The position numbers and the translations under genes were made by a program. The notes below the pieces were generated by a model, which did no database searches, was not told where the DNA came from, and saw only the letters and a list, made by a program, of their open reading frames with translations. A DNA stretch of 64,000 nt, taken from Escherichia coli (GTDB lineage Bacteria > Pseudomonadota > Gammaproteobacteria > Enterobacterales > Enterobacteriaceae). Below, one piece after another: positions 52,221 through 56,880 of this stretch. Location of the stretch: assembly GCF_050920415.1 (NCBI RefSeq), contig NZ_CP169309.1; one strand, written 5' to 3'. The first letter of the stretch is position 1. Every line of letters begins with the position of its first letter.

Positions 52221-53273
52221 ATGAAAAAGACCCGTACAGCCAATTTGCACCATCTTTATCATGAACCCTTACCCGAAAACCTGAAGCTCACGCCGAAGGT
52301 CGAAGTGGATAATGTTCATCAACGACAGACAACGGATGTCTATGAACATGCTTTGACGATTACCGCCTGGCAGCAGATTTACGATCAGCTGCATCCGGGC
52401 AAGTTTCATGGTGAATTTACGGAAATTCTACTCGATGATATTCAGGTTTTTCGTGAATACACCGGTCTGGCGCTGCGTCAGTCGTGCCTGGTCTGGCCGA
52501 ACTCGTTCTGGTTTGGCATTCCGGCGACGCGCGGTGAGCAGGGATTTATCGGTTCGCAATGTCTGGGAAGCGCAGAAATTGCGACACGCCCTGGAGGAAC
52601 CGAGTTTGAATTAAGTACGCCGGACGATTACACGATCCTTGGCGTGGTGCTTTCTGAAGATGTCATCACCCGTCAGGCTAACTTTTTGCATAACCCGGAA
52701 AGGGTGCTGCATATGTTACGTAACCAGTCGGCGCTGGAAGTGAAAGAGCAGCATAAAGCCGCGCTGTGGGGCTTTGTCCAACAGGCTCTGGCGACATTTT
52801 GCGAGAACCCGGAAAATCTCCATCAGCCTGCAGTGCGAAAAGTGCTGGGGGATAATTTGCTAATGGCGATGGGGGCGATGCTGGAAGAAGCGCAGCCAAT
52901 GGTGACGGCGGAAAGTATCAGCCACCAGAGTTACCGTCGCTTGTTGACCCGCGCGCGTGAATATGTGCTGGAGAATATGTCCGAACCGGTAACCGTGCTG
53001 GATTTGTGCAATCAACTGCATGTCAGCCGCCGCACGCTACAAAACGCGTTTCACGCTCTTTTAGGCATTGGCCCAAACGCGTGGCTGAAACGCATTCGCC
53101 TGAACGCCGTGCGCCGCGAACTGATAAGCCCGTGGTCGCAAAGTACAACGGTCAAAGATGCCGCCATGCAGTGGGGATTCTGGCATCTGGGGCAATTCGC
53201 CACGGATTACCAGCAACTGTTTGCCGAGAAGCCGTCTCTGACGCTACATCAGCGGATGCAGGAACTGGAGTGA
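52221..53273 (+). CDS. eutR: AraC-family transcriptional activator of eut operon
   Basis: 350-aa ORF with C-terminal AraC-type HTH. Confidence 0.9.
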
Positions 53274-53349
53274 GGGTGAGGGCCGGATGAGGATGGTGTT
53301 TGATCCGGTCCATAGTGAAGTTACAAATTACGTTGAATTGCTATGTATT

Positions 53350-53667
53350 TTATTGCCCAACGGGATAGGCGATAAACAAACCGACAATTGTCAGAATACA
53401 CGCCAGCAGGAATACCAACATACAATTTACGCGCTTTCGCGAAATTTTAAATAAATAGCAAAATAGTGTTGTTACCACGATCACTACCGGGATAGTCATA
53501 AAATTAATAACGATGAGTGCTATCAATCCAAAACTTGCTCCTCCACCGTGGGGAATAAAAATGTGTTCTTCAAAATAAACTTCTATAGCAAATGCCAGCA
53601 CACATCCCAGAAAACTCATATCCAGATGAGGGTGCCATTTACTTTCTTTATTTGATGTGTCTGACAT
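53350..53667 (-). CDS. Hypothetical small membrane protein (3 predicted TM helices), accessory
   Basis: 105-aa ORF in markedly AT-rich DNA; GGGAG SD ~9 nt upstream of ATG; hydrophobic segments; no K-12 counterpart at this position that I recognise. Confidence 0.6.
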   Translation of the reverse strand: MSDTSNKESKWHPHLDMSFLGCVLAFAIEVYFEEHIFIPHGGGASFGLIALIVINFMTIPVVIVVTTLFCYLFKISRKRVNCMLVFLLACILTIVGLFIAYPVGQ

Positions 53668-53707
53668 TCTTAAATGCTCCCGTGAGCAAACTGGCGCAAA
53701 ATAATTT

Positions 53708-54970
53708 CTAAGATTGCTGATAAGACGTCGCTGTTGTCCGGCACTCCGGGCAGATAAACGCGTAAATTATCCCTTCGCCATATTGTTCAATATCGGCATA
53801 ATCCAGTTGCGCAAGAAACATCATTGTGTGGGAACATTGCGGACAGAGAGGATATTCCGCGTCCTGAATCCAGGTTGGATGCCCGCCAAGTTGCGAGAAA
53901 GAGACAGGTAAAAATGGGTCTGCGGCAAATAACGGTGACCTAAGGTTTCCCTGTCTCATGCTGTTTACAGGGAGTCGACGCCATTCCGATACATCATCCG
54001 GCAGCCAGGCAGGCGGGATATTTTTTGCAGACAAATGAGCGTTACCCTTTGAGTCCATGTAGCCGAAAATGGTGCTGTAGGCGGTGCAACATTCGCAAGT
54101 CACGACGCGAAAACTGCCGTTATCGCTAAGACCCGTTGCCTTCAGGTCAACGTCGAAAAGATTTGTTAGGGGCAATGCGCACTTTGGACAGGTATCGCTG
54201 CGTTCATCAACAACACGCAAAGCTTCGCAAGACCCGGTGCTTTTCATCTCCAGATGAAAACATTGAGGAAAATAGAGATTACGCCTTTGATCTTCAGCGG
54301 TTAACTCCCAACCGGCCTCATGCGCATATTCTTCTGGCGCGATGTAAAGTGAACTGCGCCACAGCGGCGGGTTATTGCGCCAGTAGGCAAAACGTTCAAC
54401 AACAACGTCATCCCCAATCCATGCCAGACATTGCAGAATACAATTTCTGTTTTCTGCATCATCCTCAACCCGTTCTAACAGCGTATCGCGAACATCCGCT
54501 GGGGCGCGGTGGAAAGGCAGAGGAGAATAAGCGTCTAAATCATCATAAGAGATCCACTCTCGTAAATATGCATCCAGATTTGCCTGGGTAAACGCCGCCA
54601 GACAAAGACAAATCTCCTGAGCGTGTTCATATTCACCAGACGCAAAGCGTTCTGTGGCGTAATCAGCCATTTGCTGCGCTTGCTCGGCGGTCAACTGTTG
54701 ATACAGGGCATCGGTGGGAACGGGGCAGGGAGTCCAGTCGATTAACGCATCGAATTTCCGCGGTTGGTGAATTAATTTAAGCATGGCAACCGGATCGCTT
54801 AACCCAGCAAACGCATTCACGATCTTTTTGTTTTTCTTGATATATTCGTCGTGCTCACGCTGCTGTTGGGCCTGCTCGCAGGGCATGCAGTATCCGTTAG
54901 TACGCGCTGCGGTTTCCGGAAGAATGGTTGATGTACAAGCGGGGCTTTTACAGGGAATACGGTGAGTCAT
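53708..54970 (-). CDS. Hypothetical cytoplasmic protein with CxxC zinc-ribbon-like motifs and C-terminal DUF1963 (YwqG-like)-type region, accessory
   Basis: 420-aa ORF with AAGGAG SD 8 nt upstream; C-terminus LGGHPTWIQDAEYPLCPQC...MMFLAQLD...GEGIIYAFICPEC resembles the DUF1963 signature as I recall it; additional CxxC pairs at the N-terminus and mid-protein; absent from K-12 at this position. Confidence 0.7.
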   Translation of the reverse strand: MTHRIPCKSPACTSTILPETAARTNGYCMPCEQAQQQREHDEYIKKNKKIVNAFAGLSDPVAMLKLIHQPRKFDALIDWTPCPVPTDALYQQLTAEQAQQMADYATERFASGEYEHAQEICLCLAAFTQANLDAYLREWISYDDLDAYSPLPFHRAPADVRDTLLERVEDDAENRNCILQCLAWIGDDVVVERFAYWRNNPPLWRSSLYIAPEEYAHEAGWELTAEDQRRNLYFPQCFHLEMKSTGSCEALRVVDERSDTCPKCALPLTNLFDVDLKATGLSDNGSFRVVTCECCTAYSTIFGYMDSKGNAHLSAKNIPPAWLPDDVSEWRRLPVNSMRQGNLRSPLFAADPFLPVSFSQLGGHPTWIQDAEYPLCPQCSHTMMFLAQLDYADIEQYGEGIIYAFICPECRTTATSYQQS

Positions 54971-55107
54971 AGAGGCGCTCCTTGCCTGAGGATATTAAGT
55001 CGAAAGAGATTATTATTAGATATTAGGGTGTCACTATGGCACACAAATTAAACAGAATTAATTTCAAGCCACAAACATAGGGTTATTTTTCTTTTATTTT
55101 CATGATA

Positions 55108-56010
<903 letters not shown>

Positions 56011-56880
56011 TTACCGCTTTCTCGAGTGTGCTTTCTGGTTGTCAAACCAGTGGAAATAACTGATCACGCCTTCGGCAATGGCTGTGGCGATTTTCTGGCG
56101 AAATGCCGCCGTGCCTAACAGCCGCTCTTCTTCCGGGTTGGTGATAAAAGAAGTTTCCACCAGCACCGAAGGAACAGATGGCGATTTCAACACTACAAAC
56201 GCGGCTTGTTCGGTATTGCGACTGTGCAGCTTATGCACCGGCTTAATCTTCTTCAGAATATGCGAGCCAAGCGTCAGGCTGTTTTTAATGGTATCGGTTT
56301 GCACCAGATCAAACAGCACTTGCTGCAATAGGTGATCCTTGTCAGTCGCTTTTTTACCGGCAACTTCATCAGCGCGGTTTTCGCGTTCAGACAGGTATTT
56401 CGCCATTGCGCTACTTGCGCCGCGGTTAGAGAGAGCAAATACCGAAGCACCGGCAGCTTTCGGGTTAGTAAAGCCGTCGGCGTGAATTGACATAAACAGG
56501 TCAGCGCCATGTTTATGGGCGATTTCAACGCGATCGTACAGCGGGATAAACGTATCGCCAGAACGCGTTAAACGCGCATCAATGCCATGATTACGCAATA
56601 TGGAACGGACGTTTTTGGCAATCGCCAGCACCACATGTTTTTCTTTCGATCCATTGCGACCAATCGCTCCGGTATCAATTCCGCCGTGGCCTGGATCGAG
56701 AACAACGACACGTTTGCCGCCGCTTTTTTTGGCTTTCGGCTTACTGTGTCCGTTACTGGTTTTTAAAGGTTCTTCTTTGGCGATGGCTTGCGACATTCCT
56801 GACAACGTCAGGGCAGCCAATCCGGCTTTCAGCACCTGGCGGCGCGAAGTGAGTGTTTTTAGTGGTTTAAAAGTGCTCAT
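56011..56880 (-). CDS. amiA: N-acetylmuramoyl-L-alanine amidase A
   Basis: 289-aa ORF with Tat signal (SRRQVLKAG); 3 bp upstream of hemF (operon). Confidence 0.95.
   Translation of the reverse strand: MSTFKPLKTLTSRRQVLKAGLAALTLSGMSQAIAKEEPLKTSNGHSKPKAKKSGGKRVVVLDPGHGGIDTGAIGRNGSKEKHVVLAIAKNVRSILRNHGIDARLTRSGDTFIPLYDRVEIAHKHGADLFMSIHADGFTNPKAAGASVFALSNRGASSAMAKYLSERENRADEVAGKKATDKDHLLQQVLFDLVQTDTIKNSLTLGSHILKKIKPVHKLHSRNTEQAAFVVLKSPSVPSVLVETSFITNPEEERLLGTAAFRQKIATAIAEGVISYFHWFDNQKAHSRKR

What the first reader, a model, noticed from the sequence alone, without database searches (positions are those of the whole stretch)
53350..53667. AT-rich gene for a 105-aa three-helix membrane protein immediately downstream of the DUF1963-like gene
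Seen in sequence: the ORF encodes hydrophobic stretches (LGCVLAFAIEVYF, FGLIALIVINFMTIPVVIVVTTLFCYLF, CMLVFLLACILTIVGLFIAY) consistent with about 3 TM helices, has a plausible GGGAG ribosome-binding site, and sits in DNA much more AT-rich than the neighbouring genes. That composition suggests horizontal origin. Small membrane proteins co-transcribed with a soluble partner often act as effectors, holin-like toxins or immunity factors, but this is inference.
Basis: partly seen in the sequence, partly recalled or inferred. Interest (0 to 1): 0.55.

Follow-up and report, generated by a model that had tools for sequence, protein, structure and literature searches.

The report
Small YpfK-family membrane protein gene
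The 105-codon ORF is a real, conserved gene for a small inner-membrane protein of the catalogued but unstudied YpfK family; it is a rare accessory gene always found just downstream of hemF in a few enterobacteria, and nothing suggests it is a holin-like toxin.

Summary
ORF 53350-53667 (- strand) encodes 105 aa with a GGGAG site 9 nt before the ATG. It lies 40 nt after the 420-aa gene and has 38% GC (GC3 36%, against 59% in eutR and hemF).

It is a real gene. Orthologs in Escherichia, Salmonella, Kluyvera and Klebsiella (44-97% aa identity) keep the frame, with dN/dS of 0.11-0.35. They carry Pfam PF26378 'YpfK'. RefSeq annotates an identical 'hypothetical protein' (WP_001285748.1). No paper was found.

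The family is tiny: 8 clusters among 1.84 billion representatives. It is rare: 25 of 5,426 complete E. coli genomes, always chromosomal, with no copy on plasmids or phages.

Helices 2 and 3 are clearly membrane-spanning; helix 1 is marginal.

The neighbour is a TYPP 'family 2' protein (C4 zinc finger, HEAT-like helices, YwqG-like beta domain). The pairing is historical, not obligatory. That family occurs widely without ypfK. Salmonella and one other lineage keep ypfK intact beside a destroyed copy of the neighbour.

No holin, defence-system, colicin-immunity or PDB similarity was found. Function is unknown. My best guess, held weakly, is a stand-alone, non-lytic protective or immunity-like membrane protein.

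The parts
53350..53667 (-). ypfK-family CDS, 105 aa. Predicted small inner-membrane protein with helices at about 13-31 (marginal), 43-73 and 77-100.
   Evidence: ORF list. Homologs carry PF26378 YpfK. Alignment A1 has 26 invariant columns. dN/dS is 0.11-0.35. AF2 gives three helices. Hydropathy profiles.
53677..53681 (-). GGGAG Shine-Dalgarno-like site, 9 nt upstream of the ATG.
   Evidence: Read directly from the sequence. Similar purine-rich sites precede the orthologs in E2348/69, L011 and Kluyvera. The site is weak in Salmonella.
53668..53707 (-). 40-nt spacer between the TYPP gene stop and the ypfK start. No promoter-like or terminator-like site, so co-transcription is plausible but inferred.
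   Evidence: Promoter/terminator scan. Spacing to whichever gene lies upstream is also short in orthologs: 15-92 nt.
53708..54970 (-). Upstream neighbour, 420 aa: a TYPP (DUF1963/YwqG superfamily) 'family 2' protein with an N-terminal C4 zinc finger, a HEAT-like helical domain and a C-terminal YwqG-like beta domain carrying GGxP, Q and CxxC motifs.
53274..55107 (.). 1,834-bp accessory segment (ypfK plus the TYPP gene) that replaces the 5-bp hemF/eutR spacer of E. coli K-12.
   Evidence: K-12 annotation. 28 of 5,426 complete E. coli genomes match the segment, 25 of them in full. No flanking direct or inverted repeats of note.
55108..56007 (-). hemF, the constant upstream anchor of every ypfK locus seen (same strand). 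amiA lies at 56011-56880, further upstream.
   Evidence: Annotation of the identical RefSeq region. Loci L005-L011, L014, L022 and L024.
52221..53273 (+). eutR, convergent with ypfK, with a 76-bp gap that holds only a weak hairpin.
   Evidence: RNA fold of the gap has z-score -0.39.

Best explanation
Shown:
- The ORF is a genuine protein-coding gene of the YpfK family (Pfam PF26378). The family is taxonomically tiny and confined to a few Enterobacteriaceae.
- In every locus examined, the gene sits on the hemF strand just downstream of hemF.
- It is an accessory gene, kept under purifying selection.

Inferred from sequence:
- It encodes a small inner-membrane protein with two firm transmembrane helices and one marginal N-terminal helix.
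- The most likely topology is N-terminus in, C-terminus out. All six Lys/Arg residues then fall on the cytoplasmic side.
- The best-conserved parts are an invariant Glu in helix 1, an invariant Asn in helix 2, the IFIPxxGGxSFG loop and the LLACxLTIxGxFIAYP end of helix 3. The loop and the helix 3 end face the periplasmic side.
- It is probably read through from the upstream gene: TYPP here, hemF directly in Salmonella.

Inferred from comparative context:
- YpfK works on its own, not as an obligate partner of the TYPP protein. Its link to that gene is historical co-residence at one variable locus.

Mechanism (a weak commitment, about 0.3):
- A non-lytic, membrane-embedded binding or protective protein, like an orphan immunity factor against a membrane-targeting toxin. 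It is not a toxin or holin.
For: Real gene:
- The frame is intact in orthologs from Escherichia, Salmonella, Kluyvera, Klebsiella and a metagenome, at 44-97% aa identity with 26 invariant columns.
- dN/dS is 0.11-0.35 between genera, and 0.45 within the Salmonella-type pair that lacks an intact TYPP gene.
- PGAP annotates the gene in all 25 E. coli genomes that carry it.

Family and rarity:
- Homologs carry PF26378 'YpfK'.
- A profile search of 1.84 billion representatives found only 8 clusters.
- It occurs in 25 of 5,426 E. coli genomes, one chromosomal copy each, and in no plasmid or phage record.

Constant hemF anchor.

Membrane character.

Autonomy from TYPP:
- Salmonella loci have ypfK 20 nt after hemF, followed only by a degraded C-terminal TYPP fragment. 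Even so, that ypfK cluster has 308 member sequences from many serovars; 14 of the 15 members listed are 109 aa, and one is a partial 92-aa entry.
- L011 keeps ypfK after a 55-codon TYPP stub.
- TYPP occurs without ypfK in Citrobacter, Yokenella, S. Typhimurium, Chitinimonas and Paenibacillus.

Variable-locus context:
- The same site also holds a TacA/GNAT toxin-antitoxin pair, a Tli3-family T6SS immunity gene with TPR genes, and an ankyrin gene.
Against: - No direct functional evidence exists, and no paper was found.
- The protective or immunity-like role rests only on size, membrane location, patchy distribution and the nature of the locus.
- No toxin gene is nearby.
- hhalign against the ColE1 immunity protein gives a probability of 0.8%.
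- Fixed synteny across genera is unusual for orphan immunity genes.
- Every ypfK locus seen still has at least a trace of the TYPP gene, and all 25 E. coli carriers have it intact. A functional link is therefore not excluded.
- dN/dS rises to 0.45 in the lineage lacking intact TYPP, though on only 33 substitutions.
- Frameshifted or truncated alleles exist, as does an allele with a 12-residue deletion in helix 2.
- Helix 1 may not span the membrane, so the topology is uncertain.
- Co-transcription was not measured.
Confidence: 0.55

Rival explanations
1. YpfK is the membrane partner of the TYPP family-2 protein. The cytoplasmic zinc-finger/HEAT/TYPP scaffold docks on, chaperones or regulates the small membrane protein, and the two form one operon-encoded module.
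For: - The two genes are adjacent on the same strand, 15-92 nt apart, in E. coli, E2348/69, Kluyvera, Klebsiella and a metagenome.
- All 25 E. coli ypfK carriers have TYPP.
- Every ypfK locus shows at least a TYPP remnant.
- The two genes diverge in parallel.
- YwqG-family TYPP domains are sometimes fused to TM helices, and the domain is predicted to mediate protein-protein interactions (PMC4275035).
Against: - TYPP family 2 spans Proteobacteria and Firmicutes, while YpfK is confined to a few enterobacteria.
- TYPP is found alone in five other contexts.
- ypfK is kept intact beside TYPP pseudogene fragments.
- ypfK is replaced by an unrelated 221-aa gene in three E. coli genomes.
- YpfK exposes only about 16 variable N-terminal residues and an 8-residue loop to the cytoplasm.
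Confidence: 0.2
2. YpfK is an accessory component linked to the amiA-hemF operon. It would be a small membrane protein that modulates an envelope or haem-related process, expressed by read-through from hemF.
For: - hemF is the only gene that is always next to or near ypfK on the same strand.
- In Salmonella-type loci, ypfK starts 20 nt after the hemF stop.
- No promoter-like site was found upstream of ypfK or of TYPP in the window.
Against: - hemF and amiA are core genes, whereas ypfK is present in 0.5% of complete E. coli genomes.
- The association can be explained by one variable insertion site bounded by conserved flanks.
- No sequence feature links YpfK to haem or peptidoglycan.
Confidence: 0.1
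3. YpfK is a holin-like or otherwise toxic small membrane protein that permeabilises the inner membrane: the effector of a defence, abortive-infection or toxin-antitoxin-like pair.
For: - The size (105 aa) and the count of three hydrophobic helices resemble class I holins.
- The locus lies in a variable region that elsewhere holds a toxin-antitoxin pair.
Against: - No PHROG holin, Pfam, PADLOC or NCBIfam match.
- The protein ends 3-5 residues after helix 3, with no charged tail.
- The predicted topology is the opposite of lambda S105 (S105 topology recalled from memory).
- No dual-start motif, no endolysin or phage genes nearby, and no copy in 50,697 phage records.
- No antisense RNA family was detected.
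- The gene persists alone in Salmonella with no candidate antidote.
Confidence: 0.05
4. The ORF is a spurious open frame in AT-rich spacer DNA.
For: - Low GC.
- AlphaFold2 confidence is low.
- No match to any functionally characterised family was found.
Against: - The frame is conserved at 44-97% aa identity across genera, with dS saturated and dN/dS of 0.11-0.35.
- Conserved motifs are present.
- A Pfam family has been built on it.
Confidence: 0.02

Closest known systems
Pfam PF26378 'YpfK' (uncharacterised small membrane protein family); RefSeq WP_001285748.1 / WP_001285745.1 'hypothetical protein'
   Same: - The window protein is identical to the RefSeq protein annotated in strain MFDS1022581.
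- Its homologs at 55-97% identity all carry PF26378.
- Length, helices and motifs match.
   Different: Nothing differs. It is a member. The family itself has no assigned function and no paper in the searchable library.
TYPP superfamily proteins with membrane associations (YwqG/DUF1963; Burroughs and Aravind 2014, PMC4275035)
   Same: The upstream gene is a family-2 TYPP protein (C4 zinc finger, helical domain, TYPP domain). The paper notes YwqG-family members fused to TM helices and proposes a chaperone-like protein-interaction role.
   Different: Here the membrane element is a separate gene. It is separable from TYPP in both directions, and its family is far narrower than TYPP family 2.
Class I holins (e.g. 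phage lambda S105, 105 aa, three TM helices)
   Same: Similar length and number of hydrophobic helices.
   Different: - No HMM match.
- No charged C-terminal tail.
- Predicted N-in/C-out topology, against N-out/C-in for S105 (from memory).
- No lysis cassette, no phage context and no phage copy.
E1-type pore-forming-colicin immunity proteins (ColE1 Imm, 113 aa, three TM helices)
   Same: A small, AT-rich gene with three hydrophobic helices. Patchy distribution among strains fits a protective factor.
   Different: - hhalign probability 0.8% against ColE1 Imm taken from NC_001371.1.
- No Pfam colicin-immunity hit.
- No colicin gene nearby.
- Chromosomal, syntenic with hemF, and absent from 72,556 plasmid records.

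Membership tests
Pfam PF26378 YpfK | Significant match to the family model | tested here: met
   Tested indirectly. 18 of the 19 homologs, including ones 97% identical to the query, carry PF26378 in the precomputed annotation, and the loci label it 'YpfK'. The local Pfam-A copy used does not contain this model, so the window protein itself was not scored against it.
Pfam PF26378 YpfK | About 95-110 aa with three hydrophobic helices and the conserved motifs (SF[LI]GC, E in helix 1, IFIPxxGGxSFG, IN in helix 2, LLACxLTIxGxFIAYP) | tested here: met
   Alignment A1 has 26 invariant columns, all present in the window protein. Helices as.
Class I holin | Match to a holin profile (PHROGs or Pfam) | tested here: not met
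   No PHROG hit below E 0.2, and none annotated as a holin. No Pfam hit.
Class I holin | Highly charged cytoplasmic C-terminal tail and a dual-start motif | tested here: not met
   The sequence ends ...FIAYPVGQ directly after helix 3, and the N-terminus is MSDTS with no Met-Lys-Met start.
Class I holin | Location in a phage lysis cassette next to an endolysin | tested here: not met
   The neighbours are eutR, the TYPP gene and hemF. There is no tblastn match in 50,697 phage records.
Pore-forming colicin immunity protein (E1 type) | Sequence or profile similarity to known immunity proteins | tested here: not met
   hhalign of A1 against ColE1 Imm gives probability 0.8%. No Pfam hit. Only one reference immunity protein was compared.
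Pore-forming colicin immunity protein (E1 type) | Genetic linkage to a colicin or bacteriocin gene, usually on a plasmid | tested here: not met
   No toxin gene in any locus examined. No plasmid copy.
Pore-forming colicin immunity protein (E1 type) | Confers specific protection against a membrane-acting toxin | not testable with these tools
   This needs sensitivity assays with deletion and complementation strains.
Anti-phage defence system component (PADLOC) | Match of YpfK or its neighbour to a known defence-protein model | tested here: not met
   No PADLOC family matches either protein at E <= 1.
Type I toxin-antitoxin small membrane toxin | Peptide under about 60 aa with an overlapping antisense RNA | tested here: not met
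   The protein is 105 aa. No Rfam family matches 52900-55300 at E <= 1. No promoter-like site was found on the opposite strand within the ORF.
Obligate TYPP-YpfK two-gene module | Consistent co-occurrence of both intact genes | tested here: not met
   ypfK lies beside TYPP pseudogene fragments in Salmonella and in L011. TYPP is found without ypfK in seven or more contexts. Within E. coli, however, co-occurrence is 25 of 25.
TYPP / DUF1963 (neighbour gene only) | GGxP motif, conserved Q, paired CxxC motifs and a YwqG-like two-repeat beta fold | tested here: met

The most novel reading that the evidence does not exclude
The hemF-proximal locus may encode a previously unrecognised modular system. 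A conserved TYPP family-2 scaffold or chaperone would be paired with alternative narrow-range downstream 'cargo' genes: the YpfK membrane protein, the orphan 221-223-aa cytosolic protein, or both. YpfK would be the membrane-acting or membrane-protecting component, for example an orphan immunity protein against a still unidentified enterobacterial membrane toxin. The evidence does not exclude this. In E. coli, both YpfK and the 221-223-aa family occur only in TYPP-bearing loci. The swap point lies at the TYPP stop codon.
Probability: 0.12. Interest if true: 0.5.

Novelty: already known. Interest (0 to 1): 0.22.

Why it matters
As it stands, very little. The gene is already annotated as a hypothetical protein and already has a Pfam family, and it is a rare accessory gene.

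Three points have modest value:
- The ORF is firmly validated as a selected gene.
- Its apparent pairing with the DUF1963/TYPP gene reflects locus history rather than an obligate partnership.
- The hemF-eutR (or hemF-maeB) junction is a recombination-exchanged variable site in enterobacteria. It collects narrow-range orphan genes, a toxin-antitoxin pair and immunity-type genes.

If YpfK proved to be an immunity or protective factor, it would point to an unidentified membrane-targeting toxin circulating among Escherichia, Salmonella and Kluyvera. EPEC E2348/69 carries the locus and is a convenient test strain.

Tried and rejected
Searches on YpfK that found nothing:
- Pfam-A, NCBIfam, PADLOC and PHROGs scans gave no significant match.
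- A PDB sequence-profile search gave 0 hits at E <= 10.
- Rfam over 52900-55300 gave nothing.
- A peptide-pattern scan of 100,044 species-representative genomes confirmed no relative. Either the gene is accessory even in species that have it, or the patterns were too narrow.
- tblastn against plasmids and phages gave nothing.
- Literature searches for ypfK, PF26378 and the RefSeq accessions gave nothing relevant.
- hhalign against the ColE1 immunity protein gave a probability of 0.8%.

Structure work:
- The AlphaFold2 model of YpfK from 13 sequences reached only pLDDT 59. I did not use it for a fold search, because a low-confidence three-helix model gives meaningless matches.

Local features:
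- The promoter/terminator scan found nothing above shuffled expectation. The one terminator-like hit lies inside the ypfK coding sequence.
- The hairpin between eutR and ypfK is not better than shuffles (z -0.39).
- No flanking repeats suggest a mobile element.
- No ypfK remnants were found in loci that lack it.

Considered and rejected:
- SMR-type transporter (about 105 aa, Glu in helix 1): there are only three helices and no Pfam hit.
- Signal peptide or lipoprotein: the N-terminus is polar and variable.

Full report
**Where the window is.** The region is the distal end of the E. coli eut operon. eutA, eutB, eutC, eutL and eutK lie upstream, and eutR is at 52221-53273 on the + strand. On the - strand come hemF (55108-56007) and amiA (56011-56880). 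The 1,834 bp between eutR and hemF (53274-55107) are 100% identical to E. coli MFDS1022581. RefSeq annotates two genes there: a 'hypothetical protein' (WP_001285748.1, the ORF in question) and a 'DUF1963 domain-containing protein'. In K-12, hemF and eutR are 5 bp apart, so the two genes form an accessory segment.

**Checking the observation.**
- The ORF lies at 53350-53667 on the - strand, encodes 105 aa and starts with ATG.
- The three quoted hydrophobic stretches are present.
- GGGAG lies 9 nt before the ATG.
- The gene begins 40 nt after the stop of the 420-aa gene.
- GC is 0.38 and GC3 is 0.36. hemF has 0.55/0.59, eutR 0.53/0.59 and the 420-aa gene 0.50/0.49.

One qualification concerns the helices. 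AlphaFold2, at low confidence (pLDDT 59), gives three helices at 13-31, 43-73 and 77-100. Helices 2 and 3 are strongly hydrophobic. Helix 1 contains E29, E33 and E34 and is marginal by Kyte-Doolittle and by a simple Hessa-scale sum (scale values from memory). All six Lys/Arg residues lie in the N-terminal tail and the K74-R79 loop. That fits an N-in/C-out three-pass topology (inference).

**Is it a real gene?** Yes.
- A search of 5.8 billion proteins found 19 clusters. They come from E. coli, E. fergusonii, E. albertii, Salmonella enterica and Kluyvera georgiana. An ortholog next to a Klebsiella TYPP gene and a metagenome ortholog were found separately.
- Identity to the query is 55-97% in that search, and 44% for the metagenome ortholog.
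- The alignment has 26 invariant columns. They include C22, E29, the IFIPxxGGxSFG segment, N55 and LLACxLTIxGxFIAYP.
- Nei-Gojobori dN/dS is 0.11-0.35 between genera, with dS near or beyond saturation.
- PGAP calls the gene in all 25 complete E. coli genomes that have it.

**What family?** The precomputed Pfam annotation of the homologs is PF26378, named 'YpfK'. The local Pfam-A copy lacks that model, so the direct scan returned nothing.
- The family is extremely narrow. A profile built from 13 members, scored against 1.84 billion cluster representatives, found only 8 clusters, several of them fragments.
- No paper in the searchable library mentions it.
- There is no match to NCBIfam, PADLOC, PHROGs or PDB sequences.

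**Distribution.** ypfK is in 25 of 5,426 complete E. coli genomes, with one chromosomal copy each. Several of those assemblies are of the same strain or clone. It is absent from 72,556 plasmid and 50,697 phage records. In Salmonella it is also accessory. One 90% cluster has 308 member sequences from many serovars, while S. Typhimurium-type loci lack it. A scan of species-representative genomes found none.

**Context.** In every locus examined, ypfK is on the hemF strand downstream of hemF. The arrangements seen are:
- hemF-TYPP-ypfK-eutR: E. coli, 16 genomes. One of them has a TacA/GNAT toxin-antitoxin pair inserted after hemF.
- hemF-P222, SNF2 (opposite strand), TYPP-ypfK-eutR: E2348/69 type, 9 genomes.
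- hemF-TYPP-ypfK-maeB: Kluyvera, Klebsiella sp. and a metagenome.
- hemF-ypfK-(degraded C-terminal TYPP fragment)-eutR: Salmonella.
- hemF-(55-codon TYPP stub)-ypfK-P222, SNF2 (opposite strand)-eutR: L011.

Conversely, the TYPP gene occurs without ypfK in several places:
- Citrobacter, where an ankyrin gene is present instead.
- Yokenella.
- S. Typhimurium-type loci; that Salmonella TYPP cluster has 1,074 member sequences.
- Chitinimonas and Paenibacillus.
- Three E. coli genomes. There a 221-aa gene takes ypfK's place, beside TPR genes and a Tli3-family T6SS immunity gene.

No ypfK remnants are detectable in loci that lack it. No repeats or mobility genes flank the segment. Exchange by homologous recombination through the conserved flanks is therefore the simplest route (inference).

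**The neighbour.** The 420-aa protein gives a high-confidence model (pLDDT 92).
- Invariant residues include four N-terminal Cys, GGxP, Q369 and paired CxxC motifs.
- This is the architecture Burroughs and Aravind describe for TYPP 'family 2': a dksA/traR-type C4 zinc finger, an uncharacterised helical domain and the TYPP domain. They predict a protein-interaction or chaperone-like role (PMC4275035).

**Interpretation.** The data separate two questions.

First, history. ypfK has never been seen without at least a trace of TYPP beside it, and the two genes diverge in parallel. They have long shared this locus.

Second, function. TYPP family 2 is far broader than YpfK and usually stands alone. 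ypfK is maintained intact in lineages where TYPP is reduced to fragments. dN/dS within such a pair is 0.45, on 33 substitutions. YpfK also exposes very little to the cytoplasm. I therefore favour an autonomous membrane protein whose link to TYPP is positional (about 0.65 against about 0.2 for a true partnership).

Short spacing to whichever gene lies upstream (15-92 nt), and the lack of promoter-like sites, suggest read-through expression. That is inferred, not measured.

**Mechanism.** Nothing supports a holin or toxin:
- There is no profile match.
- There is no charged C-terminal tail.
- There is no phage context.
- The gene persists alone without a candidate antidote.

Conservation is concentrated in polar intramembrane residues (E29, N55) and in the predicted periplasm-facing loop and C-terminus. 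That looks like a specific binding surface rather than a generic membrane disruptor (inference).

The locus also collects immunity-type and toxin-antitoxin genes in other strains. Given that, my best but weak guess (about 0.3) is a protective, immunity-like membrane protein. The closest functional analogue, the three-helix ColE1-type immunity protein, shows no detectable homology. No toxin gene is linked. This is a 'works like' suggestion, not a membership claim.

**Verdict.** The ORF is a real, correctly described gene that is already catalogued, both as Pfam YpfK and as a RefSeq hypothetical protein. The partner and holin ideas are not borne out. Novelty is low and interest is modest.

Noticed in passing
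window 53708-54970 (- strand): The 420-aa neighbour is a well-folded TYPP 'family 2' protein (AF2 pLDDT 92). It has an N-terminal C4 zinc finger, a HEAT-like helical domain and a YwqG-like beta domain. Full-length homologs at 38-95% identity occur from Enterobacteriaceae to Chitinimonas and Paenibacillus. Its function is unknown.
   Followed up: partly
window 53274-55107; L003, L004, L013, L021: The hemF-eutR junction is 5 bp in K-12 but is a variable site elsewhere. Strain E7-1N7 has a TacA/GNAT toxin-antitoxin pair there. WL297 has two TPR genes and a Tli3-family T6SS immunity gene. A Citrobacter has an ankyrin-repeat gene. E2348/69 has a 1,149-aa SNF2-related helicase. No mobility genes or flanking repeats were seen.
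   Followed up: partly
L021 9313-9984; L003 3275-3940 (- strand); L011 6320-6991: A second narrow orphan family of 221-223-aa cytosolic proteins (56-62% identical to each other) has no Pfam, NCBIfam, PADLOC or PHROG match and only 8 clusters in 5.8 billion proteins. In E. coli it occurs only in TYPP-bearing hemF loci (12 genomes). It sits after TYPP in place of ypfK, directly after ypfK (1-nt gap), or after hemF convergent with the SNF2 gene.
   Followed up: partly
L010 4954-5190 and L009 6337-6576: Salmonella loci with ypfK carry a decayed C-terminal fragment of the resident TYPP gene downstream of ypfK. The fragment is 85-90% identical in DNA to the intact Typhimurium-type gene and has internal deletions, while the adjacent eutR flank is 99% identical. 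So ypfK replaced about 860 nt at the 5' end of TYPP in that lineage.
   Followed up: yes
L009 6001-6294 (protein P0017): Some Salmonella carry a 97-aa ypfK allele with an in-frame 12-residue deletion that removes half of helix 2. Single-genome frameshifted or extended variants also exist (P0008, P0009, P0015). These point to occasional decay of the gene.
   Followed up: no
L021 9981-13430 (E2348/69) and L011 7121-10564: The SNF2-related helicase at this locus matches the helicase cores of ZorD, DpdE and DrmD and an SCO1167/SCO6262-family model. All matches are below the curated cut-offs, so it is not assignable to a known defence system. It is always convergent with the 223-aa orphan gene.
   Followed up: partly
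L002 1-1717 (E2348/69): In EPEC E2348/69, eutC is annotated as a 5'-truncated pseudogene next to helix-turn-helix genes. The eut operon there is interrupted a few kb from the ypfK locus. In the window, eutA-eutB-eutC are contiguous and intact.
   Followed up: no
window 53279-53310: A REP-like inverted repeat (GGCCGGAT...ATCCGGTCC) lies in the 76-bp gap between the convergent eutR and ypfK genes. Its predicted stability is no better than that of shuffled sequence (z -0.39).
   Followed up: yes
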